A stretch of DNA of 63,363 nt, counting the filler, from Streblomastix strix (Eukaryota): the NCBI GenBank assembly GCA_008636045.1. It is 2 parts of 2 records of this genome, joined end to end, with 100 filler letters (N's around TTAATTAATTAA, not from the genome) between each part and the next. Parts side by side here need not be neighbours in the genome. Positions count along the whole stretch, not along the records: positions 1 to 31,676 come from SNRW01000079.1; 1 more part is not named here. One strand, 5' to 3'. Shown here piece after piece: positions 5,331 through 32,579 of this stretch. The notes under the pieces were generated by a model. It was given only the letters and a program-made list of their open reading frames with translations, was not told the DNA's origin and searched no databases. The first letter of the stretch is position 1, and every line of letters starts with the position of its first letter. The position numbers were made by a program, and so were the translations under genes.

Positions 5331-5430
5331 AAAAAAAAGTGGTAAGTTGTTTATGAATGGAAACACCCAAATAAAGACGTTTATAAAGATATAATCATTT
5401 GAATCAAATTTATTTTATTAATGTTTCTAT

Positions 5431-5600
5431 CAAGTTGGCAGATGGGCTGATTTGACAGCAGATTTTTTTATAAATCCGGACCCTGTGCATGTAGTGCACG
5501 CTATACAGTTAAAAGTCTTTCACTATCCGCATCAATTAATGGTGCCAATTTCACAGGTTTCATTGATATTTTATGACTCGATGCACTCGGTGCAACATAA
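5431..5600 (-). repeat. Diverged isolated copy of the Polinton-like subterminal repeat family
   Basis: Reverse complement resembles 22690-22853, e.g. tgcaccgagtgcatcgagtcataaaatatcaat versus tgcactgagtgcatcgagtcctaaaacatcaat. Confidence 0.7.
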
Positions 5601-10763: not shown

Positions 10764-13209
10764 ATGACCGATAGTTTTACGACAGATATTGTGGGAACAA
10801 AGTTTTAAGAACAGCTTATTTTAGTACAAGATGATGCAAATGATCTGGAGCATCACTTTTATAAATCTAATCTCACCCAGTCTCTTAGCTCTTCATAAGG
10901 CGAAGAGTTTGTTACAATACAAAATCTCAAAGAAAAACTCGAGATTCTTGAAAAGTAGAATAATGAATTACAGCTGGAATTGAACAAAGCCCACGAAGAA
11001 TTGCGCTAACGCGAAGAAGAGTTTAAATAGTAGTTAGAACAGGAGGAAGAAAAGCACAAAAAAGAATTGTAAGATAAGGATGAACAGATTGATGAACTTA
11101 AGAAGCAAAACGAAAAACTGTCAAAAGAAGCACTGCCAAAAGGAGCACTACCAAAAGGAGCAATACCAAAAGAAGCTCCAAAAGTTCCTAGCAAATAGCC
11201 GATCACAAAAACTAATAATAAAAGTTCAGGAGCACCATTGCCTGCTGCACCTTCTTCAGCAGCAACATAATAACTGAACAAACCTAAGGTGCCATAAATC
11301 AATGTTAAAACAATAGTACCTGCAGAACCTAAGAAATAAAATAGTTATTCAGCCAGAGCATCTCGCTCTTCATCTGTGTAATTAGAGAAGAAGGCTCCAA
11401 ATGCTGCACCTGCTGCACCTGCTCAAACTGGTACATCCAATCCTCCTAAATCTCCCAGAACAAGTGTTTAAGTTACAAAGAATCAAATTGTACAGAAGAC
11501 AACTAAAAGCCCATAGTCATATGCAAGTATAAGTCAGCAACGTCAAGTTTAATAGAAAGATTTCACACAGACTGTTTCATAGCTCCCCATTCCAACAATT
11601 GAAGAAGAGGTAACCCCAATGAGTTAAAAGATTGTTTTGAATCAAACTACAATTCAAACAGATCGTAGTTTCTTTGCATCTCCCAATTAGACATAGCTGT
11701 CTCCAAGAACTCAACATCTGAGGACAATGTCACAGGCTGCACAAACATCTCCTTTCTCTCCAAATGTCACTGTTAAGGAATAATCATATCGCGCTCTTAG
11801 TGTTGAGAAGTTTCAATTATAGACTGTAACTGATCTTATTTTCAATTCTCCAACTCCAATTGCTGCTAATTCTGAACTTTTGGCGAAATCATTGTCATCT
11901 ACTTCACTTTAGGAGTAATTGAAAAGAGATCAGGAAAGACAAAGATTTGAATCAACGAGGTTGGATCCATTGGAACAGCAGAAATATACTCAAACATTGG
12001 AGAAATTGAATGATGCAAGATTGAAGGAGGTTAATATTTATTACAAATAATTTTAATTTATTATTATAATTAAATTCACCTATATATATTATTATATACT
12101 TAATCTATAAATTATTCCAGTTATCAGCACTCAAAACCCAGAAGAGAGGACTCCAAGAAGAGCTTATTTAGTTGAAGAAGTAATTTAGAGACCAAAGATT
12201 AGCATCCAAGAAGAAAGTGGATAGATTGAGGAGCAGGATAATAGAATTAAATGGAAAGAAGACAAAAGAAGACATTGAAGATGAGAAAGAGGAATAAGAA
12301 GAAGAGAAACAGTTCATTGAGAGAGAAAGGAATTTTGAAATTGAAGAGAAGAATATTGATGAATAGAATGAATTGGATTAATAGAAGGAAAAAGAAGAAG
12401 AAAAGAAAGAAGTCAAATTACTTAAAGATAGGATTTATATTCTAGAGAAGGATCTGAATGCCTAATATGAGAAGCAGAGATTATTAGCTCAATAGATTGA
12501 GAAGCTTATTAACTTTGTTAATTAGAGACCAGATTTCAACCTATCAACAAGATTAGAGGACAATTCACTATCTCCAGCAGCACTGCAATAGAAAGAGCTT
12601 CTAAGGATAATGCGTGAATTGGGATGGAGGAAGACAGGATCATCTGATAATGAGATTGATCAGGATGAATAATCACAGCAGGATAAATATATTGATCTGT
12701 TGAATAAGGTTCAGGAGATGCAATAAGAAATCAAGGATCAAGATGAAAGAAAAGAAACAGAAATAAAAGAGAGAATATAAGCAGAGAGAGAGAGGTGGAT
12801 ATAAGAATAGAAGGATGAAGAGTAGAAGTAGAAACTTGCTTTGTTGGAAAGAGAGTTCACTGTGGATTAGAAAGCTGAATTTGATAAGCTTAGAGCTCAA
12901 TTAGCTGAGTACCAAGAGAAGCTTGCACAAAGGGTCAAGTTTGAAGAAGCAGAATTTGTTGAGTTAAAGCGAGTCTGGAGGCTCAATAAGCTGAACAAAC
13001 TACAATTTGCTAAGTTGAGTCAGAGTATTGGAGATTAGATTCTGAAGGAGGAAGAGAGCTTCTCACTTCTGGTTCGGTCATTCAATCAGGGATAAGCATC
13101 CAGAGAAGATAATAAAGCAGACATATGGGGATCTGATGGTCAGAATGATAAGAAGGAGAAAGATAAGGAAAAGAAGGAGTTGGATTAGAAGGAGAAATCT
13201 AAGAAATGA
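10764..13209 (+). CDS. Hypothetical coiled-coil / low-complexity protein, ~784 aa, 2 exons (10764-12029, 12121-13209)
   Basis: Long frame open with TAR=Gln, phase-0 GT..AG intron 12030-12120, TGA at 13207. E/K/Q-rich helices and ALPKG repeats at ~11130-11170. An upstream exon is possible. Confidence 0.8.
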
Positions 13210-13668
13210 AAAAGATGATGATAAGAATAGAAGGAAATAAGATACGCTGAAAGAGATGAAGAATTTGCATTTTTGATTTTATCATTCCAAAAAGATATCA
13301 ATATTGTTACAAATTTTCTGTTTCCTTCATAATATCATCATATTGTCTTATCTAGAGGTTTTTTTAACATCAAATCTTTATTTTTTTTCCTTTCACATCC
13401 CATCCTATACCTTATTTTAGACTATGTTCAATCAATGCATTAATTTCACGTACGCTGTAGTTCAAATAAACTTAATACAATAGAAATTAATTAAAAAAGA
13501 AGCTTTGCAATGATATTTTTTGTATTTATTACTTAATAGTTTTAACCGATAAAATTAATAATTTCATTAATTAAAAAGCCAAAAATTTTTTACTCATAAT
13601 ATAATATAATATTTAAAATGATTTAAAAAAGTATCTACATTCTTTTTATAATCCATTTTTTAATCCTT

Positions 13669-16143
13669 TCATTTAAATTCTTCATAAATCCTATGAAATT
13701 TCTCATCAATTCCTTTTAAATAAAAAGTTCCCTTTAAAAAGAATCCTTTTTCTACTTCAGTCAAAGATGTTAATTAATGAATAGGAAATAAAGAAGGGAA
13801 ATTGGAAAGAGAAGAACATTAAGAAATTTATTCTTTATCTCCGTTCAATTAAATTTCCTTTTCAATTCCTTTTCCTTCTTATAATCCTTGCTTTGTTTGA
13901 TATAAATTAATAAAATATTCTCTTTCTTTTATTACCTGAATTAAGAATAGCATAAAATTAATCAGAATAAATATATATTAAATTAAATTAATTATTTATA
14001 TTATAATTATCTTATTTCATACTCTTTCATATTCCTCAATATTTTATTCTATTTTCCCATTAATAATATAATTCAGATTTTGATCAAGAGATTGTAGAAT
14101 ATTATTAAGTGTGAAATGTGTTGATGAAGATGAAGGTTAATATGCAACTCTAATTATCCATAGTGCTGAGAGGAAAAATTCATGAAAAATATCAAAATAA
14201 ATGTGGTAATAAAATCAAATAAGAAATTAGAATTAAAAATACCAGATACAAAACCAGATCCATATGAGAAACAAAGAATCCTTTTTCTATTCATCTTCTA
14301 AGCTATTTCTTCATAAACTTTATATTCTCTCTCTTATTCATGTTCAATCTTTTCTTTTTACCCTTATTGTTATTCCTTCTAATTAATGACTATAAATGAA
14401 TGAAGCAATGAACAAAGCGCAATGAATATGGATGATGTATAACTATTCCCTATGATTCTGGGGAGATTTGTAGATGGACCTTCATAATTATATATTAAAG
14501 AGAAATATGGAATAAAGCATTTATTAATTAATATGGCGAATGAATAAGTAGTAATTACAGTTCATTCAACATACCAACGTACTTATCAAATAAAAGATTT
14601 GAATCATTTAATAAATCTTTTTGTAACTGTAAGAAATGCTATTTCTTATCTTTATTCTCTTTCTACTCTAGATCTTCATTCTCATCCAAAAGTTCATCAT
14701 ATTTAACAAACTAATGTATTATTAAATAAATATATGATATGATAAATAATAATGAGAAATTTCAAACATCAGGAAAAGGAATTTTAATTTCATATTTTTC
14801 TTTTCTTGTTGTATTCAATTCTTTCACATATTTCCTGAATAATATTTTAATATGTATAATAAAAAATATTATAAATTGATAACATCTAATAATATAAAAA
14901 TTAAAAACCTTTCTTATAATAATATTCTTGTAAAAGCTTTTCTAATCATTCTAACAAAAGGAGTATGAAATATTAAATAATCAAAGTTATTATGAAGAAG
15001 AAGATGAATAGTATTATTAATATTATCTTCTGCTTCCTCTTAAAATTTAATTGTTTCCTATTTATCTTTTTATTCATATATTTAATTTTCACTTTCATTC
15101 AATTCTTATAATAATTAATGTGCACAATTATCAACAGCTTTCAAATAACATTACTATGAATTTGATTCAACCTTTATTATCATAAAATTATAAAAAATTA
15201 AAAAAAAAATTATTATTCTTATAATTTTAATAATTAATAATCATTAATATATCATTAAATACTTTTGGATACTCTGAATTTAAAAACGGTTTGAAGAAAT
15301 CATACTAATTTTCGGAATAAGATACTCTATGATCTATAAAAATAAACAATATATATATTAATAAAGAATTATTAAATATGTAATAAAATAAATTAATTAA
15401 TACTTTCAACAACTAATGGAGCATTTTTAGTAATTAACATTGCAATCGCTCCACAACCACCTGTTGGTCTTGCAGCCTGAAACCACAATATAAAATAAAT
15501 ATGATAAGTAGATGTGACATGATAAAATAAGTAAATGAATAAATTGAAGTAAAGTTATGATTCTGTTTAAATATATACCTTCTCTTCATAAACTGCTATG
15601 TCAGTACAAACAACAATAGCATTCTTTTCATGAACATGCACATAGTCAACCGCATTAAATAAGGCTTATGTACCACCAAAGCATGCATTCACACAATCAA
15701 CACCTTCTGCATGACAACTTCCTCCAAAAAGAGAAAGGAGATGTGTTTTGATAGATTTTGAATGATCTATAATCTACAATTTGAGACAATATAATAAATA
15801 AGAGTATAACTAAAATGAAAACTATTTAATACGCTTTCTGTTCCAACTTCTATTCGTCCAATGTCTTTGGAATGTATATTATTCCTTTAAATTAATCTCT
15901 ATGTAACTGTCAATGCCATGGAAACTGCATCTTCACGCCATGCTATAAGATAAAGACGCATAATGAAATATACATTATATTCTAAATTAAAAGTTGCAAA
16001 TAATACAAACAAGTGAAGACCATCTCCTCTTACCCAAGACCATCAGTATATTTACCCTTGACTCCATCTGCAGATTCAAGTGCTTTTTGTGATACAAATC
16101 TAGTTGGCCAATAAAATTCAATAGCAGATATGCCTACTTCCAT
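13669..16143 (-). CDS. HMGCS: Hydroxymethylglutaryl-CoA synthase (multi-exon)
   Basis: MEVGISAIEFYWP..GKYTDGLGQ, IGRIEVGTE, IDHSKSIKT, EGVDCVNACFGGT (catalytic Cys), ARPTGGCGAIAML, FHTPF, GNSYTSS, FSYGSG, and C-terminal GTFYLKGIDEKFHRIY. Confidence 0.95.
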
Positions 16144-16491
16144 AAACTAAATTATATATAGAAATTTGATTAATATATTTCTATATATTGATTTATCTAT
16201 AAATGAGTATCAAGTAAAATACATTTTGAAGATATTCGACATTTACAACATCAATTTGTTCATTCAATTTATGTGGTATTTTTGATTATTTATAATTCAG
16301 ATTTTATTAAAATTAAATGATAATATAAGAAATATTCGATTTAATTATTACTCAAACCTGAAAATCTATAAAAGTAATTTTATTGAAAAATTTATTAATG
16401 CAATTTAAAACTTTGTTAGAGTATTAATATTTGAATTACTTATAAAAATTAATTACTATATATAATAATAAATTAATAGAAAAAGAATTAA

Positions 16492-17003
16492 ATGGGTTTT
16501 AATGTGTTATAAACAATGAGTTAAAACTTGTTTTTGGTGTGCTTGTTTAATGAATGTCTTGAATGTTATACGCATGGCTATTATATAATAATAGGCATAA
16601 ACATAATCACAAAACAAAAAATAATACTAATATAATAGTAATTTTACAAGGTGAGTTGGAATTTCAATATGAAGTATAACTCGACACATATGAATATTAT
16701 AGAGTTTATTTTATAATTCCTTTTATAATATAATATGACTAATATTTTAAAATATATTTATTTGATTTTAAGCTTAAAAATCTTATGTTGAAAATTTAAT
16801 AGATAATTTAGGATGACTTCAGACAATATACTTCCCTCTACTATAGAAATAGATAGTAGAGCAAATTATCCTTTAGATGCACCACTATAGCCATTTGTTG
16901 GGAGTGATCAAAGCAATGGCTTAAATTAATTTTAGTTTGGAGATGCCTTACAATAACAGTTAGCATTTAACATATTTCAAAACAGTAACTTCGGCTACAA
17001 CTG
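16492..17003 (+). CDS. Possible small 2-exon hypothetical protein
   Basis: ATG-initiated frame to AAG|GTGAGT donor (~16650), acceptor tttag at ~16811, open frame to TGA at ~17001. No recognisable motif. Confidence 0.3.
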
Positions 17004-17205
17004 ATCGTTTATATAAATATATTTTATACAACGACACTCCAAAAAAGAAAGCCTTTACAGTTAAATGATTCTTTAATCCTTGAATTAATTTCATCTTATT
17101 TTCAGCATGTTATTTGGTTTATTTTATGGTCAGGCTCATGTAGAAACTTGAAATGCATGTTGAAGGTGAAATAAGTTCAACTCAATATAGCTCATATCAG
17201 GCGAT

Positions 17206-17648
17206 TCAGTTTGTCTTGCGCCGGAATCTAACTCCTGGCGTTAGCTTCGCTTTTCCACCTGTCGGTGTGCATACAACATTTCCACAATTTCCACATATGA
17301 CCTACGATGAGGCATGGCTAAATACAGTCATTCTTCAAACGAAAAAAACAAAATAAAAAATTATATAAAAAATGAAAGATTGTATTGCATTGATATAATA
17401 TACAGTAAAAATAAATTATGATATCATACATTTTTTAGCAGCCTTAACATTTAATGTCTAGGAAATAGCTATTAGGAGATTGCACAAGGCGTTTGAGCTT
17501 GTGCTTTCTTAGTTCTGCTCGTTTGTCCGGATGTAGCAGGTCTTCCTTGAACTGAAACTGTAGTTGGGAATAAAATAACAAGTGAATATAGAAAAAGAGT
17601 GAGCTAATATATAAAAAGTAAAGGACAAAAGCGAGCCTTTTTCACCAT
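17206..17648 (-). CDS. RPS27: 40S ribosomal protein S27 (eS27), 3 exons
   Basis: [80 protein letters not shown]. Intron 17429-17333; putative ATG-only first exon 17648-17646. Confidence 0.95.
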
Positions 17649-17771
17649 CGCGCCTGTGGTTCGCTCTATGCTCTTTAACCCAATGATGCACACTAATTAT
17701 ATCCTACTATCTATTGTGCATGTTCAAAACGTCTAAACCTTCAAAATCGGATTTAAATTCTGATCAGACCC

Positions 17772-20502
17772 ATGCTTTCCGATGCATTAAACTGGCCACG
17801 GCTCCACAGGTGCTATGCGAGTGGCATCTACTGTGGTAAAGGTACATGCACTTGCACTACACTATTTAAATATCTTTTGTTATTTATATACTTTTATTAC
17901 TTCATATTCAACCATTTATTAATATTTAACATTCCTTCGCCGTTCAATCAAATATTTTTTTCATTTTATAATTTTTTATTATAGCTTACACCAGCTTCTG
18001 TTGATGATTATATTCAAATCATTGCATCTAAACATGATGCAGAAATAATTGCCGCACTTTAAAAATTGCTCATTGAATGTTCATCATGTGTGTCCCGAAT
18101 TAGAATAAAAAGCAATTTTTTTAAAATATGCTATTTATATAATCAGCAAGTTCTTGGGATATCATACCATCGAATATAGGTCGATTATTCCCTCGTTTGA
18201 CAGATTTATTTATTGTTGGTAATTCAGAAATGAAGGTTAAATGTATTTTTTCACCTGTTTATTTTTTATTTCTATTCTATTTTGGTTTTTTCAGCGTATT
18301 TGCGTTCGCATAATTGAATAAGTAGGAAAGTTAACTACTTGAGATAGCGAAATTTCCTCGGGGCGTGAAATTGTGCGAAGTTTAGGGATACTATCATAGG
18401 TTAGAATATTTTAATTTTAATTTTATACTAAATTATGTCCATTTAAACTTATTTTTTTATTGAACAGACACCAGAAAAGGACATAAGCGAAGATGCAACA
18501 ACTTCATTATGTGAACTTGTTGAAAAAAGTGTTCAAACTTCGAGCGATTTAGAGATTATACCTATAGTTTTAAACCTTGCAGAGGAATAACTTCAATAAT
18601 CTCCTTCATATGACTCAAATCTTTTCTAGAAGAAAGTTCTATGCAGCATTCGTGTGTTAACTAGTGCAGTAACAGTGGGAGTAGGTAAATATATATCTGC
18701 ATCGCAGTATTAATTAATCGAAAAACTTGTTGATGATAAAGATGATAATATTTCGATTGCAGCAAACAACTTCCTTCATATGTGGAAACGCAAGAAATTG
18801 GATGTTCCAAAAACAATTGATAAGAGCGAGGTGAATAAAGAGGATTAAAGTGAATTGACAAGATAATTGCGACGGAAGGATTAAGAGATAAAACGCATTA
18901 ATGATGAAAATAAAAAGCTTTAGGAAGAACTTTAAAGAGTATAAGAAGAAAAGAAAAAAGCAGAAGAAGAAAAAAAATTGGCTGAAATTCGGGCAAGACG
19001 TGAAGGAAGACGTGCATAGAATTTAGAAAAAAAAGCAAGTTAATTAGAAGAAAAATAGAAAATGATTGATGAGCTTCAAATTTTATCTCCTTCATAAGCA
19101 AAACAATCAATTAATTCTCCAGCATCAAAATAACATTCTTTTCAAGATTTTCCAGTTAACTCCAGTCCAATAACGTCACCAACATCATACAATTTTCCAT
19201 CACGTTCTCCAACATTTTCTTCTCAATCTTCTCCATATTCATCTACCCTATCAAAACGATCTGATGGTTCAAAATCTCTATCTTAACTTTCTCCTTAAAA
19301 TTCTTACAAATTTGATTTGTTTGAAAATAATTCATTGAATAATTAACAATAGGAACCCAAAGTCGCTTCACATTAAATAGCAATTGTCTCCAAATAATAA
19401 GCATAAAATACACCTCTTACCAAATCAAAAACTCAATATAATACATAGTTTAAATAATAACTTTCGATTTAAGTAAAAAATATTTATGGATTAGAAATTG
19501 GAGGTTAATTCTTTATTTTATTAACTATTAATGAACTCCCCAAACCATTTCATATTTCAATATACTTCTTTATATATATTACTTTTGGCTTAATTATTTA
19601 CAGATATACACTTCTAGTTAGAAAATACATATCCAACAAAAGGACAAGTAGAACTATTTGAAGAAATAATGCGAAAAGTTACCGCTCTTATAGTTTGTTA
19701 TAAAATTAATAGATATTTTTTTATTTGCTTATTATTTAATTTCAGCGAGGCTATATTTCAGTTCCAATTGATTTTACAGTTAGTGATGGAATCATTCAAT
19801 GTGATTTCAGATTTTAAAACAGTTCGAAGGAAGATGGACGATCAGTTGGAATAGTGAAATCATCATATATTATACCTTATCCTTGTGATACATCATATCC
19901 ACCTCGTATGAAATGATACTATTTTTTATTTATTTCATTATATTTGGAGACAATTTAATTTATTATTGATGTTAACGTTATTTTATTTTTTATTTTTTTT
20001 CTTGAAGAATGCAATCACATGTTGGAATACTATGGAAAGTTTGAATTTGTTTATATTTTTTTTTAATTATTTATAATTATTAATTACAATTATCATTCCA
20101 AACAAACAGTGAAGGTATAATTAATCATAAGATGAATAGCACAGAAGGAAATAAGGAATTCTAAGATGATAATCACATCATTAGAATGGAACTCAATTAT
20201 AATAAGGGAACACTCCACTTCTTCCTCGACCAAATATAATAACCAGTTTTTGTACGTGGGATAAAAGAACCCGTAAAGTTCTTTGTATGGAAAAATTTTA
20301 AAAAACTAAATTGATGTTTTCTTAAATTAATTTAATGATGGACTTTATATTCTCATTTTTATTTTATATACCTTTTTTTGTAACATATTTATAATAGGGC
20401 TGTCTTTTCTATCCCAATACATCGTTCATTGTTGAATCATTAAGAAGATTGGGAGCTCCTCGTGCAGTATCGATGGAGAATGAGATTCCTGTGGAATGGT
20501 GA
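17772..20502 (+). CDS. Multi-exon protein with helical N-terminus, coiled-coil/Ser-rich middle and C-terminal SPRY-like domain; apparent in-frame TGA at 18340
   Basis: Several GT-AG introns. C-terminus reads 'GIIQCDFRF..RSVGIVKSSY', 'GNKEFQDDNHIIRMELNYNKGTLHFFLDQIQQPVFVRGIKEPVKFF' and 'EIPVEW*'. Confidence 0.7.
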
Positions 20503-21254
20503 TGATATAAAGCAACAAAATAGATAAATATAGAAATATAATAAGACAACAATAAGGAAATCATTCATTTAACATTTCATATAGCAACTTTTAATATCAC
20601 AATCTAGTTTATTATTACTTATATAATTATAGTATTTAATCGCATGCATATTATTATCATTAATTTTACACCTATAAATCCACTTTCACCATTTATTAAA
20701 ATTTAATAATAAATATAAAGATATTAAGATATAATAAACTTTTAAGATATAAATTTTGTAATAAATGATGGAAAATCAACTGAATTTTAATAAAGTAAAA
20801 ATTAGGTTTTTAATGAAATAAAAAGGTATTAATGTGTAATAAATGTTTTCAATCACGTACTGTAATTATCATTGCTTGGAGTATATGACATTTCATGGTG
20901 TTATTTAAAATAGAAAATTGGTAAAATCAATACTAAATTATATAAATTTTTTTAATCATTTATTTTTATTATTTTAATTAATTATTATTTGGTTAATTAA
21001 CTTAATTCATTTTCATTAATCTTTTTTCTCTTTAAATTCTCCTTTATTATTTTTTTGACTTTATTTTAAATTTCCTAATAAATAATATAGAAATAAGAAA
21101 TAAACTATGAATTTCTAAATAAAATGTATAAAAATAATAAAAAAAGAAGTAAATAGAGTAATTTCAGTCCCTTAGATGAATTGTCATCATAAATAATTAA
21201 GTACAGGTCTGCTAAAGTTTTCATCATTTACTCCAATACATAAATATATTTTTT

Positions 21255-21668
21255 TCATAAAATTGTCATGCCTTTGTTATTTCCTGGTATTGTTACTGGA
21301 TCTGTCACAATTAATAACCGTGGCTCAACATATCGCTTTTGGATCTGGTTCGTGAATGTTCCGGGTGTGAATTTCGTGGACATCGCAGTAGCCCCGGTGT
21401 ATTTCGCGTATTTAAGGATCGCACGCTGCCCATAAACACGCCCCGATACTACACACACGTCTGCTGGATTCTCAATCCCTGCGATAATCCGTGCTGCAAA
21501 TTTGATTTTCTCAAGCGTCATTCTCAGGTTGATGATGTACTCATCGGTCTTTTATCGTGTGGCTATGTACGGCGTCATACGTGGATTGGCATTCTTGTTT
21601 CCAATGTGCACTCGGCAAGACAGCAGCATCCGAACGTCCGTTTGTTCCGAATTTACTTCGCGGCTCAT
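21255..21668 (-). pseudogene. RPSA: 40S ribosomal protein SA (uS2), N-terminal ~126 aa only
   Basis: [90 protein letters not shown]. Homology stops at ~21291 and no C-terminal half was found downstream. Confidence 0.85.
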
Positions 21669-22278
21669 CTCTCGCGTGCAATAAGGGACGAAAAAGACTA
21701 AGCATAGGTTAAATAATAAAGATTATATTCATAAGTATGTATTTCGAATAAGAAATATTAGTGACAAATGGCAGATGAGCAAAACGTAAAATACGAAATT
21801 GTACAGCCATCAGCATCCACGCGGTTACAAAATATAAATATGGATATATATAAATAGTACAAGAGATATGAAGATGAAACAAGATCAAATGCAAGTGTTT
21901 ACAAATCGAGCGATCTGACCCCGCGACTAAGAAATTTTCAAAAAATTATTTTGACACTGATTGTACTAATGCTTTGCATACTGGTTTAAATAATGATTTT
22001 AATTTATGTTATTATCATTTAATAATTATTTTAATGTTTTTCTACTATTTGTGATTCAGTTTCTTCATCGATTAATTACGCATATCCGAAAATTGCATTA
22101 AATTTTGATATTGAAATAGATTATGCGCTTTAAATAATTTATAATGATGTTTGGGCTATTTAATCTGATGTGCAACAGCAACTTTTCTCTTAATTTTTTT
22201 GGAATTTCCCCTCGTAATTAATAAATGAATATTTACTCGTCTTAAAAATCAGATGAATAAATAAATTATTCAAATGTT

Positions 22279-23076
22279 AGTAGTTATGAGAATATGGAGA
22301 GTGCCCCGCATTGAAAAAAATAAAATATAATAATAAAAATAAAATAATGAATATAAATAATAATAATAAATAATGAAAATAAATAATATTAAATAAATAA
22401 TGTAAAAGAAAATAAACACTTGAATATGATTAATGAATGTATGATATTGAATATAATTATTGGTATTGATTAATGAAGTTGATTAAAATATTGATTAATG
22501 ATGTATGATTTTTGAACGCATGGCACTCTCCATATTCTCATAACTACATTGTGAAGTTGATGGAGTTGGTTATTGGATTTGGTTGATTGATTTGGTTTTT
22601 TGATTTGAACATTTGAATTTTATTATATTCGGAAATCTAAAATTATTGATGAATTCATTAGTAAATTGAACATAAAATATATTTGTTTTTATGCACTGAG
22701 TGCATCGAGTCCTAAAACATCAATAAAATATATGTTATTAGCACGTATAAATGGAATAGGATATAAATGACTTTTGACTGCACCAAATGCATCGAGTGCA
22801 TCGGGTCAGAAATTTTTATAAAAAGCTGTGGCCAACTGGACAACTGGCCAACTTATTGAAGATTTCAGCTGCAGGCGGAGGTCTTACCGACCTATAAAAT
22901 TGAACATAATATATATTTGTTTGACTGCACCGAGTCCTAAAACATCAATAAAATTTATGAAATTGGCACGCATAAATGGAATAGATTATGAATGACTTTT
23001 GACTGCACCAAATGCATCGAGTGCATCGGGTCAGAAACTTTTATAAAAAGCTGTGGCCAACTGGACAACTGGCCAA
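22279..23076 (+). mobile_element. Polinton-like left terminal repeat: AGTAGT terminus, 26 bp inverted repeat (22280-22305 / 22522-22547), tandemly duplicated subterminal unit ending in the conserved box
   Basis: gtagttatgagaatatggagagtgcc and its exact reverse complement. Two ~220 bp direct copies end in aaaagctgtggccaactggacaactggccaa (22821-22851, 23046-23076). Confidence 0.7.
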
Positions 23077-23099
23077 TAATTAAGAAAAAAATAAATATA

Positions 23100-23900
23100 A
23101 TGGATCCAATTTCATTTCTTAATGGCTAAATTAATTATTCACTGAAACAAAATAAATCAAATATGATAATAATTATAAAGATTCAAATTTATTTTATTCA
23201 ATAGAAGTATCTGTAATAAGATTAAATTCTACTAAATTTTATATATCATTATTGCTTCAATATATCTAATCTAAACAGCGAAAAATTTCTTCTCATTTTT
23301 ATTTAGCAAAATTAATAAAACAATTAATTGTTTCACTTAATATTTTAATTGAAAAATTTTGCATCTTAGGTACATTGAAATATGTAATCCAAACTGATTT
23401 AAACTCGTATATAAAAAAATTTCTTGACATAATAAATTTTTAAAAAGTCCATTTCCTTATGAACTCATAGCCACAGATGACTATTAATTGGAATTACATA
23501 AAATTTTTTCAAATTTATGATTTCCATATAAATTTTAAGAATTTTGAAATTACTGATGACGAATAGTAACTATATCTACCAAATTTCTAAACAATAAAAC
23601 AAAAATTAACGATTTTAATCGATGATATTACTAGAGTTATTTTAAAATATTTGATTACATAATAGTGATTAAAATACCTGTTAATCAAATTTAAATGAAT
23701 ATCAACTATAAAATAAATAGATTTTCACTAATTTATATTTTAGTTTGTTCAAATATAAATAAATACTCCTTTTCTTCTGATAATCCTAATCAAATCATCA
23801 GTTAATCAATTATTAATTTATAAAAAAAATAATTCTGCGTATCATAAAACAATTTGCTAGCGAAAATTAATTGTCATAAATATTAAAATATTAATATTGA
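23100..23900 (+). pseudogene. Decayed hypothetical ORF just inside the terminal repeat
   Basis: ATG at 23100, ~24 bp after the box; coding-like composition with breaks; no motif recognised. Confidence 0.35.
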
Positions 23901-23934
23901 TTGAGATATATTTATCAACATTAATGAAAATTAT

Positions 23935-24390
23935 AGTAGTTATGAGAATATGACGAGTACCCCAAAACAAAGAAATCAAATAAATAAAGAAAATAAATTA
24001 TATTATTTAAATAATGATAATTATACAATGGAATTAAAAATCTGATATTAAATAATGTAAGACGGAGTACTCTAATGGTATAAATTAATGAATGTCACGG
24101 ATAATAGTGATTAATGTATTAGATTAGTGAAGTACGTAAATGAAGTTCATTATTGCGGTGTATTCTTTGTATGTATGGCACTCGTCATATTCTCATAACT
24201 ACATAGGAACGTTAATGGCTTAATTGATGAATTTGGTTATTTGAAATCTAAAATTGTAGGTAAAAACAATGAATAAATCATTGAATTTTAAACATAGTTT
24301 ATATTTGTTTATGATTAAGCTGCGTTGGATAAAGTGGACTGAGTTATAAAACTTCAATAAAAAGCTATGGCCAACTGGACAAATGGCCAG
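23935..24390 (+). mobile_element. Second Polinton-like left terminal repeat (module A)
   Basis: AGTAGT at 23935; inverted repeat 23936-23961 / 24177-24202 with 1 mismatch; box aaagctatggccaactggacaaatggccag at 24361-24390. Confidence 0.7.
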
Positions 24391-24789
24391 ATTAACGAAA
24401 AATAAATATTGTTCAAACGTTAATTGAATCATTTATGTCTTCATTAACATCTTAGTCTTTGTCATATTTTTTTTTAAGGAGTTCATTAATTATATGCAAA
24501 TTTTTAATATTTGCGATAATTTTTTTAAAAATTTTTAAGTATAAATAGTTGCATATAATTAACTTTAGAAACATGATTTGTTTGATTTTATTTGTATCTA
24601 ATTCTTGTATTTTTGCTTTTTTCTCTAGAAGCAATTGTTGCCTGTTTTTCATCGGTATATTTGTTTGGTCTTCCTTATTTTGATAAATTTAATGAATTCG
24701 TTTGTGCTGACTCAGTTTATGTTGTTTCATTGATAATTTCATTAAATGTCTGATTATCTATCGTTTTTAATTAAAATAGAAAAATGAAA

Positions 24790-25830
24790 AATAACTAATA
24801 ATTATAACTTTTGTTTCATCTAAATAAAATTTTATAGCGTAATATTCTGGAATAGATTCTTTATTTTCACTATCATATTTACAATAATATGAAGGTATTT
24901 TTATTATATATATTTTATAAGAATGATTCAATAATTTGCTTAAAACATTACCATTTATGTATCGAATAAATATCGCTAATTATTTGAAATTTTTCCTATA
25001 TTTCAAAAATTTTTATTATGTTTTCGAAATCGAGATGTATTAATATTATATTTCCAGCCTTAAATAATAATATGCCCTGTTATCGCTATCTTACTAATCA
25101 TCGCTTTAATTTCTTCATCTATGAAGGTATATATAATATCCTTCAAAATCACTTGAAAATTGAACTTAATATTGGCTATATTTATTTTTAAAACGCTAGA
25201 TGTGGTGTATTATTGTATATGCCAACGACTATTTACATTTTTTTATTCGTTGAAAATTAGTTAAATTTATAATCAAATGCATTCCTTATTGTACGAATTA
25301 CTGAATCGACAACTTGATTATTATTAGTGAATTTTTGAATCAGTGAAATAACTATTAATTTTATTCTATGAACAAAATAAAGCAAAATAAGAACCATTAA
25401 ATCCTTTCTCTCCATCACCACGAATATTATTTACGTAATAATCTTTAATTAATTTTTCAATAATCCAACTACTTATGCGGCTGATTTATCTATCAATGGA
25501 TATACCACCTAATATTTCATATTAATGTTTATGCAAAATAGATACATACCTATTTTTCTTTTTTGCTAAGCTGTTTGTTATCTTATTTCGTCATATTCAA
25601 AGATAACATCTTCAAATTCCTCATTATTTTCCTGCAAGTCTTAATCGACAGAAAAGACTATATTTATTTTCAAAATTCCTGATTTTTGAGAGAAATATGG
25701 TCGTTGTAGACTTTGTAGTGATTATAATTTATAATCTCTAACAAGTAGGTATTGGTTATTAGCATAGTTTTATTTATTGATTTTTCAAACAATTTTAATT
25801 TTGTTTTAAATGGAAAATTGGGCATATTTT
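24790..25830 (-). pseudogene. Retroviral-like (RVE) integrase, Polinton type, decayed
   Basis: 'RPYFSQKSGILKINIVFS', 'YLFCININMKYQVVYPLIDKSA', 'NNIRGDGEKGF', 'NQVVDSVIRTIRNAF' and 'IYNNTPH' occur in integrase order. Confidence 0.75.
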
Positions 25831-26257
25831 CCTCTTCATCAGCAGCGGATAATTAACCTGCTAATTATACATCTTTATCCGATTGTTTATTTTTTATTTA
25901 TTCTTTTATTTTGTTGATTCATATTACAATTAAACTGAATAATAATAATAGTACCAATCACTAAATGTTCGTTTTCCAATAATTATCACATCGGCTTTTT
26001 CTATAATAATTTCAATGTGTTTTTATTTGCAATTTTAAAGCTATTTTATAAATTCTCGTAGATAAATTTTGTACTAAATTTTAAATGCATAACATCGGTA
26101 TCTTTTTATGTTTCAAATTCAAACTCATCCCTTTAATATTTATCTCCGGCAAATGACCTAAATATGTCTACATACAAACTATTTCCGTTTTACATTTATT
26201 TTTAACAAAAATAAAACTAATTTATATTCAAATCGTTAAAGAAATCAATTATCAATC

Positions 26258-26400
26258 TGGCCATTTGTCCTGTTGGCCACAGCATTTTATAGAAATTTCT
26301 GAATCAATCCACCTAACCCACCCGGTCCAGTCAAAAGCTATTCATTAATTGTTCTTTTTTATCGTGTCAATTTCACAGATTTTGTTGATGTTTTCGTTGA
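26258..26400 (-). repeat. Inverted (right-hand) copy of the subterminal box closing module A
   Basis: ctggccatttgtcctgttggccacagcattttat. Shares the variant caaatggccagatt with the 24361 copy. Confidence 0.8.
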
Positions 26401-26594
26401 AATTTTTCTCGAATATATAATTATAAAAACTCAATTGCTATCCGTTAATATATGAAAATTTTGCTCAACATTAATTTTCAAAAACAACCATTTACATTAA
26501 TTTGATGTTAATCCAACTTTATCAATTATTATTATGATTATCTGAGCGATTGATAAGGTGGTAAATTTTATGATAATAGCTCTGGTAGTTCTTG

Positions 26595-26860
26595 AGTAGT
26601 AGGCACAATCGGAGGCGTGCGTCGTCTTTATGAGTCTTACCCCTATTTATCTGTCATTTGTTAAAAATAAAAATAAATAATAATTACATTAATAAATTGG
26701 ATTTTTGGGTGTTTCGAGTCATAAAACATCGATGAATTTTATGAAATTTGCACGAGAAAATAGAATAGGTTATGAATGACTTTTAGGTGTTCCGAGTGTT
26801 CCAAGTGCTCCGAGTCAAAAACTTTTATAAAAAGCTGTGGCCAACTGGACAACTGGCCAA
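26595..26860 (+). repeat. Left terminal repeat of module B
   Basis: AGTAGT at 26595 (no hairpin seen); subterminal unit 26700-26860 ending in aaaagctgtggccaactggacaactggccaa. Confidence 0.7.
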
Positions 26861-26891
26861 TAAATGATAATAAATAAATAAATCTCCTAAA

Positions 26892-28004
26892 TCATTGTCT
26901 ATTTTAAACGAACTTATATTTAGCTAAGTCATAACCACCTATTTATTGTTATCTCTATGCTATATATTAGCTAAATATTTACATGGCTTATCTAATTGCT
27001 TCCTTAATCCTAGTATCGACATCTTTGTCTTAATATAGTTGAGCAATAACGGAAAGCATTTCTTTCTTATTTATTCTTTTAGCAATTGGAAAATATTCGT
27101 AATATCTTTTTTCTACATGAATTTTATTATTTCTGTTATATTAGTCTATTTTTCTTTCTTACTATTCTAATCGTTCAACAGCAGGATTAGTAAGTACTGA
27201 ATTCCAAACAGCTGCTATGACTTATAATTTGGTTGTCATTTGCATTTATGCGCTTCCATTATCGTTTACATGTTTTTTTGTCATATTTGTGAATGCTCTG
27301 AAACTATAACACTTTGTTTCTCTTACTTTACGAGGCTAAGTTTATGATAGCCATTTCATATAAGGACCATCTTTTATTCCTGATAATTTTAATTTGGCTG
27401 CCAATGCAGTTCGCTCAACATCATCAACATCTGTATAATATTATTTCTTCCAATTTTCTTAATGTTAATTGTTTTTATCACCAAATTTTACAACTATTGT
27501 TTAACCATCGATTGAATATATTGCATTATTTTTCCTATCATATACATCCTCATTATCAGGAGTGGCTTCATTATCATCTAAGACTTATTCAAGCACATCA
27601 AATCGATTACAATATTATTTATCTTATATATATTTTTGAGCACTGACGGAGGACGATAATCAATCAATTTTCTTAATGTCCCTGTTTAAGTAACCAACGA
27701 GTGTTGCAAGAATATCCCCTGCTTCTTCCTTAAATTATGGGCCTGTATATTTTCTTGTTGTTTGAATAAGTTATGGCAGGAACGGCAGCCTATCATCCGG
27801 TTTTGCTCGTGATTTCATTCTGTCCAATCTTGTGACTTGTGCTTCATAATAATCGTAATCACCCTCCATTCCATCAACTTCCATCATACTCTCATCTAAT
27901 TACCCACCTGAACCTTACTTTCTTTTTGCTACAAATTTTAGACTTTTGTTTGCATCTTTTTCGTTAACTATGTATTGTATTTTTTATAAGGTTAATGATG
28001 ACAT
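26892..28004 (-). pseudogene. Hypothetical element-borne protein (~370 aa, frameshifted), divergent from the ATPase
   Basis: ATG at 28004 and TGA at 26892, ~30 bp inside the box; intronless and coding-like under TAR=Gln. Confidence 0.5.
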
Positions 28005-28045
28005 TCTAATATTTTTTGTTAAAGAATTTAATTTATTATTTAAAA

Positions 28046-28832
28046 ATGGCGAGTTTTACATAAAAAATGGATAAAATGTTAAAAGAAATAAAAGTGACTA
28101 AGCATGAGGTTTAAACTATTATTCATAATGAATTAAACTTTATAAATAATTCTGTAAGTTTATTGATAGGTTAGCGTGGTAGTGGTAAGATATACAATAT
28201 CTATAAAGAAATAGTTAAATTTAACTAATTAGAAAAACATTGTTAAACTCTACTCATATACATCAGCGACTCAAATAATGACATTTCTTATAAAAAATGA
28301 AAGATTTAATAAAAATTCCAACATAAATTGTTCCAAATGCTGAAGCGGATTATGTGTTGAATTATTTAATCAAATATAAATAAGCGTACTATAAAATATA
28401 AAAAAAATAATTATAAAAGAATTATCGAAAGAATCAAAAGATAATATATTAACCAATATATTTGGAGCTAGTGGAGGAGGTAATTTTGACGTTAAATTTT
28501 CTCATATTATTGTTCTATTTGACGATGCAATGAGTATATTTAAAAATAAAAATAATCCACTATTTAAGAGTATATTTAAGAACAGATTGCCCAGAATAAC
28601 ATATTTCTTTTGTTTATAAGTCACCATTGGTTTAAATACTGCTATTAAATCTTATCTCGATTCAATATGATTCTTCGGTTCATTTATCAAATTAAAATTT
28701 AATTAATTTTTCTATTAATCATCTATTCCATCTGATAAAGAAACAATATGGTATGAATATGTTCGACTTACTAAATAGTAACAATTAGTGGTATAATATG
28801 AAATGAGTAGAATAGTTGTTAGAATAATATGA
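28046..28832 (+). pseudogene. A32/FtsK-like genome packaging ATPase, decayed
   Basis: Walker A 'LLIGQRGSGK', Walker B 'IIVLFDDA', and 'FKNRLPRITYFFCLQ' (Arg-finger/Gln motif); ~260 aa with lesions. Confidence 0.8.
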
Positions 28833-28845
28833 AAAAATTAACGAT

Positions 28846-28995
28846 TTGGCCAGATGCCCAGTTGGCCACAGCTTTTTATGAAAATTTCAGAGTCGGTCCA
28901 CTCAATCCACACGATCCAGTCAAAAGTTATTCATAAGCCATATCAATTTTTCGTGCCAGGTAATGCTTAAACAAAATGACTCAGAACATCCAAAA
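28846..28995 (-). repeat. Inverted (right-hand) subterminal box closing module B
   Basis: ttggccagatgcccagttggccacagctttttat...ccagtcaaaagt is the reverse complement of the family consensus. Confidence 0.8.
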
Positions 28996-29159
28996 ACTAG
29001 TCTAGTTTGTGTTCAATCCTATTCAATTAATCTTTGGCACAAGTTTTTATATATATTTAACCTTATATTTTTGATAATTTATAACCTCCCAATTTATATA
29101 ATTTATATAATTATTACGTTGTTATTTTTGATAATTATTATTAATTTTAGGAAATAAAT

Positions 29160-29706
29160 TATTTGAAATCGTTTAAGGTCTAAAATTGTTTTATTTCGTT
29201 GGTCATTCCTTCGACCCCCTCCTTGAGTGGAATTTCTTCTTATTCATCTGTTTCTATTTATAATTTTGAAGAGAGTTAATTGTTTTTTCAGTTGTTAAAT
29301 AATATTCTTTCCATTTTATTTCAACTGAAATAAATTAAATTCTTGTTCATAATTGCGGTTCAAGTTATATATTCATGCATTCTTTTTTTATAAAATTATC
29401 AGTTAAATCCTATTTGAATATAAATTTTGTTCCATTAAATTAAATATCTATCAATTTTTTGTTTAAATTTTCTTAGACGGTTTCATTTTTGGTCATAGCA
29501 ATACATTCTTATTCATTGTACAATAATGCATATTTTAATTCAAATATCAATTTACGATTAAACCATTTCTTGTATTTTCTTCGAATATTTAATATTGCAT
29601 TATTTTTTTCATCAACTTCTATATATTAAACGGCTAGAACATAAGCTGTTTCTTTGCCTTGTGGCATGATTCTTGGTTTCCATTGTTATATTTCATTATC
29701 TTTCAT
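29160..29706 (-). pseudogene. Decayed hypothetical ORF (MKDNEIQQWKPRIMPQGKETAYVLA...)
   Basis: Intronless coding-like stretch between modules; no motif recognised. Confidence 0.35.
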
Positions 29707-29952
29707 TTATATTTATTCTTTTAATTAATTATTTTTAGATTTCGTTTCTTCCATTTTTCTATCAAATATTAATGAAATTTTATCAGCCAAAGATGTATAA
29801 TCATCTAATTGATATTCAAAATGAATTCTTTCATCTAATAAAACCGTTATTTCATTAACATAACCTCAATATTTAATTTAGATTGCAAACTCCAATTATA
29901 TTTTTATATATAAAAATGTTAATAAAACTTTATAGAGCCAGAATCCAATATT

Positions 29953-31060
29953 AGTAGTTAATGAAAAGGACGATGCCCTCACATTGATAAACGCAGTGAT
30001 TTGCCCACATCAGAAATAACCAGTGATATTACGAATTGCTGACATATGAAAAACGAATAGATTATCCTGAACTAAAAATCATGGAATAAATTGATATTAA
30101 TAAAGAAATATGGATAAAATAATAAACAATAAGATTTATGAATATCATTAATAATGAAAAATAATTGATATGATTTACGATATGTGTTAATAAAAATAAA
30201 TAATTGATATGATTTCTGAACCTCACAAACGAATAGGATTTAAGCAATATTTCGGGCATCGTCCTTTTTCATTAACTGCTTATAGCCCAAATCAATGATT
30301 TGACCGAAGCGTACTAACATATATTGGTTATTTGACTATGTCCGATTAAGCTTTCACTGACGAAATTGAGATAATGGCATCGACTAACTGATCGATGATT
30401 GAAACACATTATTTGATGAAATTAGTGATGATGAACAGTTTCAGAATCGATTATAATGGTTGTTTTTGGAATCTACGAGTAAGATATGACCTTAATATAG
30501 CGTATCAAAGTACTATGAAAAACTAAGTTTTTAATCAGAATTTTGACCTATCATAAATTTATTTTATTTTTATTATATAGACTGAAAAATCATAGAAAAA
30601 TTGAAGTTTTTTGAATGACCTGAGAATCAATGTACTAGCCAATGTTGATACGCTGATCACAAATATAATGTTAAAAATGAGTGGATGGACTATTGGATAT
30701 GGCTAAATATGAAAAACAATGAAATTGATTAATGGAATGGATGAATGAAGTTAAATGTCTATACAAATAAAATATGGCAGCCCCTTTGAAAATGGAACAC
30801 GGAATTGTTCCACCATTAGTGTGTGTGTGCTAGCGGAGTGGATAAATGAAGTGAATTGTCTAGGTGGAACAAGGAACGGAACGGAACAAATCCTAGAGAC
30901 GCCAGCAATTTTTGTCTGTCATCTGCCATATGCCATAAATTTGAATTGTGGAGAAATCGATTGAATTACCTTAAATGAAATACAAGACAGATAAGACAAA
31001 ACAAGACAGAAAAATATAAGACGTCTAAAGTTGATGGACAATTGGACAGATGGACAGTTG
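29953..31060 (+). mobile_element. Third Polinton-like left terminal repeat (module C), divergent subfamily
   Basis: agtagttaatgaaaaggacgatgccc (29953-29978) with near-perfect inverted copy at 30254-30280; variant box tggacaattggacagatggacag at ~31035-31057. Confidence 0.65.
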
Positions 31061-31116
31061 AATGAAAATAAAAATTATTTTTCTCAAACTATTTCAATAT
31101 TTCGTCTTTCAGGAAA

Positions 31117-31676
31117 ATGGCATACCTGGCAAATAACACTGAAGACAGTAAACTTACTGAATCAACTGAAAAGAGCATTAAATGTATGACACTTGAGAAA
31201 GGATCAAAAAGGCAATATAATCGTAAATCAAAAACAAATGAGAAAGCTAAAGCATTAATTGATTAGATGATTATTGAATAGAGTAATGGACAGACTAATG
31301 AATAGATAAATGAATAAAAATAAACTAAAGAATAACCCGAGTCTTAAAATGATTTTGATGTATTCTATGAAGTATTTTCTGAATGTTTCACTAAAGCTAA
31401 TGAATAAATATAATCCAAACCAATCAAAGAGAGAATTGATGGAGCAATCATTGATTTATATGAATATCGAAAATTCGCTGATCCAAAATTAAAAAATAAG
31501 TTATTAACAGGACATGTTGTTGATTTGAGCTTGTGCAAAGACGATAATTTATGTATTATTGATTTTGATATCGATCATGCAGGTAAATTGAATGAAGAAG
31601 AAAAAGAGAAAATACGATAAAATATAATCAATAATATGCTTCCAAAGAATGTTGGTTTAGTTCTAACTGCAAGAGG
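31117..31676 (+). CDS. AEP-superfamily primase-polymerase (Prim-Pol), N-terminal part, cut by contig end
   Basis: Open 186-codon frame ending 'NLCIIDFDIDHAG...VGLVLTARG', matching hhhDhD motif I and the start of the T.xGG.H motif II. Confidence 0.65.
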
Positions 31677-31776
31677 NNNNNNNNNNNNNNNNNNNNNNNN
31701 NNNNNNNNNNNNNNNNNNNNTTAATTAATTAANNNNNNNNNNNNNNNNNNNNNNNNNNNNNNNNNNNNNNNNNNNN
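31677..31776. other. Artificial contig-joining linker
   Basis: N44 + TTAATTAATTAA + N44, exactly 100 bp; a six-frame stop spacer. Confidence 0.97.
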
Positions 31777-32319: not shown

Positions 32320-32579
32320 TTGTAAACAACCCAGCAGTCAATAAAGGCCTCCACTCTATTCAAATTTGTATTACTTACTGTCTTACGTTTATTTACAGCA
32401 TCAAAAAGCCTGATGACCGCTGTGGAGGTTTCTGATAATAATATATAAAAACAAGTTCGCATGTCACCGCTACGTAGAATTTGTTATTAATGTCAGTTTG
32501 TTTGATCTTACAAATTTTAAGGGTTGATCGTATTTCAATAAAGTGTGGAGGACATTATTGACGGGTGGGTTGTTTACAA
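32320..32579. mobile_element. MITE-like element with ~34 bp imperfect terminal inverted repeats
   Basis: ttgtaaacaacccagcagtcaataaaggcctccac versus gtggaggacattattgacgggtgggttgtttacaa; no clear TSD. Confidence 0.65.

What the first reader, a model, noticed from the sequence alone, without database searches (positions are those of the whole stretch)
22279..31676. Candidate segmented (multipartite) Polinton-like element: integrase, packaging ATPase and primase-polymerase in separate modules with shared terminal repeats
Seen: a conserved box occurs as inward-facing inverted pairs at 24361+/26258- and 26829+/28846-, each enclosing ~1.9-2.0 kb. Module A holds an RVE integrase, and its two boxes share a private variant (caaatggccagatt). 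Module B holds a divergent gene pair whose stop codons lie ~30 bp and ~13 bp from the inner box edges, so the cargo fits exactly. Further left ends precede an unknown ORF (23100) and a Prim-Pol (31117). Known: Polintons/Mavericks are normally single ~15-25 kb units with one TIR pair, often starting AGT repeats, encoding RVE integrase, pPolB, A32-like ATPase and capsids. Inference: these functions are split here over small units with shared ends, as in a segmented integrating virus or a family of trans-complementing mini-elements.
Basis: partly seen in the sequence, partly recalled or inferred. Interest (0 to 1): 0.9.

Follow-up and report, generated by a model that had tools for sequence, protein, structure and literature searches.

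The report
Decayed Polinton copies with internal repeats
This stretch, likely from a termite-gut protist, holds broken pieces of an abundant virus-like mobile element; one of the two 2-kb blocks that look like separate segments has the same neighbours at other sites, so it is likely a pile of decayed copies of one larger element with repeats inside it, not a segmented virus.

Summary
The repeats are real; the segmented reading is mostly not supported. The host reads TAA/TAG as Gln, and the closest protein relatives are named Streblomastix strix. Module B (unknown gene plus likely ATPase) is not free-standing. Gene models of the unknown gene on other contigs run past its left repeat into the same pPolB start (11 of 24 run-ons) and past its right repeat into the same two genes (5 of 23). 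Its repeats therefore sit inside a conserved run X-Y-R-ATPase-unknown-R-pPolB. The 'unknown ORF' at 23100 is an internal pPolB exonuclease fragment. The only element ends found are AGTAGT starts with a 27-bp inverted copy about 250 bp inside; none lies outside the three repeats at 26258, 26830 and 28846. Best reading: nested, deleted, decayed copies of one large Polinton whose subterminal repeat recurs at gene-block borders. Whether the integrase block and the primase-helicase unit move on their own is unresolved, because no intact copy was seen.

The parts
22279..22548 (+). Element end H1: AGTAGT start, 27-bp arm repeated in inverted form about 245 bp inside; the interior does not fold
   Evidence: 26 of 27 arm positions match; whole-unit fold z=-8.5, interior alone z=+3.5
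22663..22851 (+). Repeat R1 (three 9-bp units, AT-rich tract, box of three 8-bp units)
22897..23076 (+). Repeat R2, tandem copy of R1 (89% over 189 bp)
23090..23900 (+). Internal fragment of the protein-primed DNA polymerase gene (exonuclease region), frameshifted; begins 14 bp after box R2. Homology shown for 23090-23428; the rest read by eye
   Evidence: family identity
23935..24203 (+). Element end H2, placed directly after the pPolB fragment; its arms differ from H1 by matched changes on both sides
   Evidence: one contig with no differences spans 23061-24056
24300..24392 (+). Repeat R3, next to end H2
24416..24815 (-). Unidentified broken reading frame downstream of the integrase, ending at R3
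   Evidence: no Pfam or PHROG hit
24824..25950 (-). RVE-type integrase gene, frameshifted (homology 24824-25736; start estimated from relatives' length)
25989..26198 (-). Unidentified short reading frame between R4 and the integrase
   Evidence: no hit
26248..26394 (-). Repeat R4; no terminal arm on its outer side
26530..26662 (-). Stub of the pPolB gene start, cut after about 40 codons; at other loci it continues with sequence absent here
26706..26860 (+). Repeat R5, internal; closest to the terminal copies R1/R2 (79-84% over the core)
26892..28004 (-). Unknown gene (about 365 aa, mostly helical, one in-frame TGA); all 85 relatives found are named S. strix
28046..28832 (+). Likely A32-like packaging ATPase, broken over three frames (Walker A GQRGSGK and Walker B IIVLFDD seen by eye; motif labels recalled)
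   Evidence: database searches blank
28836..28958 (-). Repeat R6, internal, between the converging 3' ends of the ATPase and gene Y
   Evidence: contigs in runs X3 and X4 join an R copy to 28966 (table 5)
28943..29206 (-). Gene Y, unidentified, linked to the unknown gene at other loci
29347..29880 (-). Gene X, unidentified, linked to the ATPase and unknown gene at other loci
29953..30280 (+). Element end H3: AGTAGT start with its own arm sequence and matching inverted copy
   Evidence: a contig in X3 has a different sequence upstream of 29949 (record 22)
30965..31056 (+). Distant R-like repeat R7 before the primase gene
   Evidence: z 2.6-6.4 against R1-R6; same upstream sequence in relative P0005
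31117..31676 (+). Primase-helicase gene, N-terminal 186 codons, cut by a sequence gap

Best explanation
The region holds broken pieces of an abundant Polinton-type element, and it is likely a pile of nested and internally deleted copies of one large element whose subterminal repeat also occurs inside it, at gene-block borders. Shown: each end found is an AGTAGT start, a 27-bp inverted copy of the terminal arm about 250 bp inside, and then repeat R; the run X-Y-R6-ATPase-unknown-R5-pPolB start recurs at other loci; pPolB is cut here after about 40 codons, and a middle piece of pPolB sits behind another end. Inferred: (1) the integrase block H2-R3-integrase-R4 is the terminal block of the same element and was brought next to the pPolB start by a deletion of several kb; (2) H1-R1-R2-pPolB fragment is an older deleted copy into which this copy inserted; (3) H3-R7-primase-helicase is the end of a related family inserted upstream of X. 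From general knowledge of Polintons (recalled): pPolB would copy the element from its ends, the integrase would insert it, and the ATPase would package it in capsids; 820 capsid-gene hits are reported for this species (PMC10120064, Tables S1 and S4). R (three 9-bp units, an AT tract, three 8-bp units) likely binds a protein. Four gene 3' ends abut an R, on its inner side (three) or its outer side (one), so its internal copies would most simply act as transcription stops or borders, and would also favour rearrangements that leave R-bounded pieces.
For: Of 128 gene models of the unknown gene among 172 stored proteins, 24 run on past its 3' side. Eleven, on 11 contigs of different length, reach the pPolB start beyond R5 or its continuation; 5 end inside R; 3 stay in the gene; 5 could not be placed. 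Of 23 with extra N-terminal sequence, 5 on 5 contigs reach Y or X beyond R6 and 3 reach only the ATPase antisense; 4 stay in the gene and 11 (20-55 aa) are unplaced. None of 460 shuffled extensions hit these flanks. P0063 spans X to beyond the pPolB start in one model. P0072 continues into a domain 37% identical to pPolB relative P0152 (E=3e-16). Tags EZS28_001441 (that domain) and _001442 (unknown gene) are neighbours on one 27,150-bp contig, as are _002510 and _002509. pPolB identity: Atlas PF03175 clusters at 0.94; Foldseek hits to adintovirus and MELD-virus polymerases at E=1e-9 to 3e-6 (low-confidence model). No terminal arm lies in 26395-26705 or directly outside R6. Contigs of run X1 with no differences span 23061-24056 and 25887-26603, so these junctions stand in that run.
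Against: No run-on links the integrase to pPolB at another locus, and only one S. strix integrase model was found, at 38% identity. 104 of 128 models say nothing about the 3' flank, and run-ons favour same-strand coding neighbours, so a minority of free-standing copies would be missed. R3 and R4 share a private 14-mer, as a true end pair would. Summed contig depth differs by part (integrase bins 20,000-82,000; unknown gene 6,000-24,000; primase 3,000-5,000), which would also fit separately amplified units, though the tool says this is no copy number. No capsid gene, right end or target-site duplication lies in the region. One contig has a primase relative two tags from an unknown-gene relative (EZS28_003454 and _003452), which hints that the primase unit may be linked rather than inserted. 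X1 may be the source of the window.
Confidence: 0.6

Rival explanations
1. A coarser multipartite system: a large pPolB-ATPase unit with internal repeats, plus a separate 3-kb integrase unit and a separate primase-helicase unit, all sharing H-R ends and complementing each other in trans.
For: The integrase block is bounded by inverted R3/R4 with a private 14-mer. H2 and H3 are true starts, each with its own matched arms. H3 has a different upstream flank in another copy. Depth is unequal between parts. No relative links integrase to pPolB.
Against: R4 has no terminal arm outside it, and its outer 135 bp do not match the terminal linkers above chance (z 0.5, 0.0, -0.3). R3 and R4 are less alike (71%) than R4 and R6 (79%). 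Internal R copies are shown for R5 and R6, so R4 needs no other explanation.
Confidence: 0.2
2. The local order is an amplification or assembly chimera joined at the repeats.
For: Thousands of contigs with related sequence lie on the region (10,230 in X1), the window has a padded gap at 31677, and no listed contig spans the whole stretch. PMC10120064 section 7 warns that short-read assemblies of such elements give false breaks.
Against: Contigs with no differences at depth 9-23 bridge the R2-pPolB-H2 and R4-pPolB-stub junctions. The B-Y-X order recurs at other loci.
Confidence: 0.1
3. One reading: each 2-kb box-to-box interval, including the ATPase module, is an independent segment with its own insertion sites.
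For: The cargo of module B fits the interval exactly. Five run-ons end inside R and five are unplaced.
Against: All 11 run-ons that can be placed beyond R5, and all 5 beyond R6, show the same flanks as the window. No terminal arm lies outside R5 or R6. The interval after R2 starts in the middle of pPolB.
Confidence: 0.05
4. Module B is an invertible cassette that flips between inverted repeats R5 and R6.
For: R5 and R6 are inverted and 74% alike over 111 bp; the cargo is a self-contained divergent pair.
Against: None of the 24 C-terminal or 23 N-terminal run-ons shows the flipped order, though a flipped copy would be harder for a gene model to run through.
Confidence: 0.05

Closest known systems
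Polintons/Mavericks and Polinton-like endogenous viruses of protists, Metamonada group (PMC10120064: passages, section 7 and parts of supplement 2 seen)
   Same: pPolB or primase-helicase, RVE integrase, likely packaging ATPase, terminal repeats, many copies. The paper reports 820 capsid-gene hits in S. strix that use the host's genetic code, and insertions of generally 15-30 kb.
   Different: Copies of the subterminal repeat inside the element at gene-block borders, and a 27-bp inverted copy of the terminal arm inside each end. Neither came up in the listings. No capsid gene or full-length copy was seen here.
Adintoviruses and MELD viruses
   Same: Best structural matches of the S. strix pPolB relative.
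   Different: Only 10-14% sequence identity in those matches; their genome layout was not compared here.
Bidnaviruses (segmented, pPolB-encoding ssDNA viruses; PMC4061559 seen as search listing only; shared segment ends recalled)
   Same: The precedent for a segmented genome with a Polinton-type polymerase.
   Different: No integrase and parvovirus-like capsids (recalled). Here the polymerase and ATPase genes are linked in one run.
Ginger/TDD integrase-only DNA transposons (PMC2836005 seen as search listing only)
   Same: What the integrase block would work like if it moved alone.
   Different: The block has a full end on one side only and shares its repeat with a pPolB-ATPase element.

Membership tests
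Polinton/Maverick | Protein-primed family B DNA polymerase | tested here: met
   Two pieces in the window match pPolB relatives; family identity
Polinton/Maverick | RVE integrase | tested here: met
   Relatives at E 6e-17 to 1e-4; one hits PF00665 at E=2.6e-7, 31.3 bits against a cut-off of 32.6
Polinton/Maverick | A32-like packaging ATPase | tested here: inconclusive
   Walker motifs by eye only; no database hit for the broken pieces
Polinton/Maverick | Ends beginning 5'-AG with short tandem units (feature recalled) | tested here: met
   All 4 ends in the window begin AGTAGT
Polinton/Maverick | One pair of terminal inverted repeats around 15-30 kb, with a 6-bp target-site duplication | not testable with these tools
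   No right end in the region and no genome held
Polinton/Maverick | Major and minor capsid genes, protease | tested here: inconclusive
   None recognised in the region; the unknown gene's model is mostly helical, not a jelly roll (pLDDT 57). Capsid genes are reported elsewhere in this species (PMC10120064)
Segmented (multipartite) integrating virus | Each module has complete ends on both sides | tested here: not met
   No terminal arm outside R4, R5 or R6
Segmented (multipartite) integrating virus | Each module occurs at independent sites with unrelated flanks | tested here: not met
   Module B: same flanks in 11 of 11 and 5 of 5 run-ons that can be placed beyond its repeats. Not established for the integrase or primase units
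Segmented (multipartite) integrating virus | Free linear segments or particles | not testable with these tools
   Only contigs of DNA runs were available

The most novel reading that the evidence does not exclude
A Polinton family that has split in two or three: a large polymerase-ATPase unit built from repeat-bounded blocks, and separately integrating integrase and primase-helicase units that share its ends, forming a multipartite endogenous DNA virus in an oxymonad.
Probability: 0.2. Interest if true: 0.85.

Novelty: new variant of a known kind. Interest (0 to 1): 0.36.

Why it matters
A truly multipartite Polinton would be a new genome plan for this virus group and would let one test how segmented DNA viruses arise; the evidence removes the strongest case for that here. 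What remains is modest. This family appears to carry its subterminal repeat inside the genome at gene-block borders, and each end holds a second, inverted copy of the terminal 27 bp that changes in step with the first. Both point to cis-signals for integration, replication or transcription that can be tested. The case also warns that inward-facing repeat pairs in short-read protist assemblies need not be element ends.

Tried and rejected
Box-pattern scans found 0 loci in viral contigs and 0 in metagenome contigs. Protein-based scans of viral contigs with the unknown-gene alignment, the integrase alignment and two ATPase pieces found 0 confirmed loci each. The metagenome scan with the integrase alignment gave 2 loci of about 1.1 kb, too short to show layout and without a match to the repeats. 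No RNA holder was listed. Read evidence on the outer side of R4 at other copies was not obtained, so that junction stays open. The unknown gene stayed unnamed: no Pfam, PHROG or NCBIfam hit of note, no Atlas hit, no fold match at E<=0.001. PDB sequence searches with pPolB relatives were blank. A suspected likeness between P0159 and the N-terminus of P0142 was not supported, so the link from the stub to pPolB rests on P0072 and on neighbouring tags. A long cold hairpin at the ends was rejected: only the 27-bp arms pair, and the interior folds no better than shuffles in H0, H1 and H3 (H2 z=-2.4). H as a stand-alone small transposon was rejected because all 4 copies are followed by an R-like repeat. 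R as a one-way promoter was set aside: the box faces a gene start twice (R4, R7) and a gene end three times (R3, R5, R6). In PMC10120064, supplement 2 is cut in the stored copy and none of the rows seen lists an S. strix contig; the five S. strix gene maps in supplement 3 are pictures. Both may show intact layouts. PMC11071308 (term search only) had nothing on segmentation. Four look-ups of earlier findings returned nothing.
Full report
Setting. Under the standard code the 63-kb window has only 12 ORFs of 80 aa or more; under table 6 (TAA, TAG = Gln) long frames appear, including a ribosomal S2 piece at 21255-21665. All 17 relatives of the primase and all 85 of the unknown gene are named Streblomastix strix, and the runs that hold the DNA are labelled termite gut metagenome. 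The host is therefore very likely this oxymonad or a close relative. A padded gap at 31677-31776 ends the region.

The repeats. The box core occurs six times. It is the end of a longer repeat R of 90-180 bp, made of three 9-bp units, an AT-rich tract and three 8-bp units. R1 and R2 are a tandem pair (89% over 189 bp). Over the 92-bp core R5 is 79-84% like R1/R2, R4 is 79% like R6, and R3 is only 71% like R4. Two more distant copies lie at about 5430-5590 (-) and 30965-31056 (+).

The ends. Four AGTAGT starts exist: 22279+, 23935+, 29953+ and about 5973-. Each has an inverted copy of its first 26-27 bp about 250-300 bp inside. The arms differ between copies but stay matched within a copy. The interior does not fold better than shuffles, apart from a weak signal in H2. 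Every H is followed by an R-like repeat. No H arm lies between R4 and R5 (best z 1.3); in the kilobase beyond R6 the best score was a weak partial match (z 2.3, 6 of 200 shuffles). The outer part of R4 does not match the H-R linkers above chance. So the window has four ends and three R copies without an end.

The genes. Module A holds a frameshifted RVE integrase (homology 24824-25736) and two unidentified frames. Module B holds an unknown gene of about 365 aa and a likely packaging ATPase, identified by motif only. Right of R6 lie two unidentified genes, Y and X. The gene at 31117 is a primase-helicase. The sequence after R2 is not a new gene: from 23090 it matches the exonuclease region of pPolB relatives P0152 and P0171-P0173 (33-43%, E 9e-10 to 4e-12). 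Their identity as pPolB comes from Atlas clusters with PF03175 on 44-75% of members and from Foldseek hits to adintovirus and MELD-virus polymerases (model pLDDT 53).

Test of segmentation. No genome and no related locus could be fetched, so I used public gene models of the unknown gene. Some run on through predicted introns or read-through and so record their neighbours. Among 172 stored proteins, 128 match the unknown gene. Twenty-four have a 3' run-on (23 of at least 20 aa, plus P0078): 11 reach the sequence at 26530-26662 beyond R5 or its continuation, 5 end in R, 3 stay in the gene, and 5 are unplaced and leave the gene 230 bp or more before its stop. Twenty-three have extra N-terminal sequence: 5 reach Y or X beyond R6, 3 reach only the ATPase antisense, 4 stay in the gene and 11 are unplaced. 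Ten rounds of shuffling (230 sequences per side) gave no hit to these flanks. The 11 and the 5 models lie on contigs of different lengths. P0072 continues from the stub into a pPolB N-terminal domain, and neighbouring locus tags confirm the pair on two more contigs. Contigs in runs X3 and X4 also join an R copy to the end of gene Y. R5 and R6 are thus internal to a conserved run X-Y-R6-ATPase-unknown-R5-pPolB. In P0063, P0096 and P0098 the stub is followed by a shared sequence that is not found after the stub in the window, so the window copy is cut there. Limits: 104 of 128 models carry no 3' information, and run-ons favour coding neighbours.

What stays open. The integrase search found one S. 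strix model (38% identity, no run-on), so nothing shows what lies outside R4 in other copies. The primase unit begins at a true end whose upstream flank differs in another copy (record 22), yet one contig has primase and unknown gene two tags apart. Summed contig depth is hundreds to thousands of times the flanking level for the integrase, module B, Y and X, and highest on R; this shows an abundant family but is no copy number.

Is the locus real? Contigs of X1 with no differences span 23061-24056, 25887-26603, 26933-27455 and 27619-28188 at depth 9-23, so the breaks and two key junctions stand in that run, which may be the window's source. No contig spans all of it.

How it likely works. Shown: end structure, internal R copies, the conserved run, the cut pPolB. 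Inferred: one large Polinton with the integrase block at one end; a deletion joined R4 to the pPolB start; the copy sits inside an older deleted copy (H1-R1-R2-pPolB piece); a primase-helicase element of a related family inserted near X. Recalled for the family: protein-primed copying, integrase insertion, ATPase packaging. R likely binds a protein; the 3' ends of the frame after the integrase, the unknown gene, the ATPase and Y all abut an R, which suggests a stop or border signal, and the repeats would also favour rearrangement.

Comparison with print. PMC10120064 (passages, section 7, supplement 2 index and rows, supplement 3 labels) reports 820 capsid-gene hits in S. strix, groups them with parabasalid capsids, and describes insertions of generally 15-30 kb; it has no occurrence of 'segment' or 'hairpin' in the main text. 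Six searches (listings only) showed no segmented Polinton and no account of internal subterminal repeats in this family; the library lacks most subscription papers.

Verdict. Observation partly confirmed, interpretation partly supported, a new variant of a known kind. Interest 0.36; a coarser multipartite system keeps a probability of about 0.2.

Noticed in passing
window 5430-5975 (-): A lone end of the same family (H plus a distant R, facing left) with no recognisable cargo behind it.
   Followed up: partly
window 31677-31776: A 100-base gap: 44 N, a 12-base AT palindrome with stops in all six frames under the standard code, 44 N. It looks like a linker between contigs, so the window's two sides may be unrelated.
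   Followed up: no
window 1151-1780 and 4191-4793 (-): Frames that look by eye like parts of a DIRS-type retrotransposon (label recalled; Pfam blank for 1154-1780).
   Followed up: no
window 6000-9000: A-rich coding-like stretch next to the lone end, possibly another decayed mobile gene.
   Followed up: no
window 21255-21668 (-): Ribosomal protein S2 gene piece (Pfam E=7e-13) about 600 bp left of end H1; a second version with 31 differences over 549 bp stands in runs X1 and X3.
   Followed up: no
window 22268-22278, 23923-23934, 29941-29952, 5974-5985: All four AGTAGT starts are preceded by T, three by TT: an AT-rich target preference or a longer terminus.
   Followed up: no
window 32320-32579: A separate 48-bp inverted pair (83%) beyond the gap.
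   Followed up: no
P0028 and P0066: Two copies of the unknown gene, two tags apart, on one 3,421-bp contig: a tandem or rearranged block.
   Followed up: no
L001 and L002 (1-1110): Related integrases read in the standard code; each has a short gene on the opposite strand just upstream.
   Followed up: partly
P0164: A pPolB N-terminal domain relative carrying an HNH endonuclease domain.
   Followed up: no
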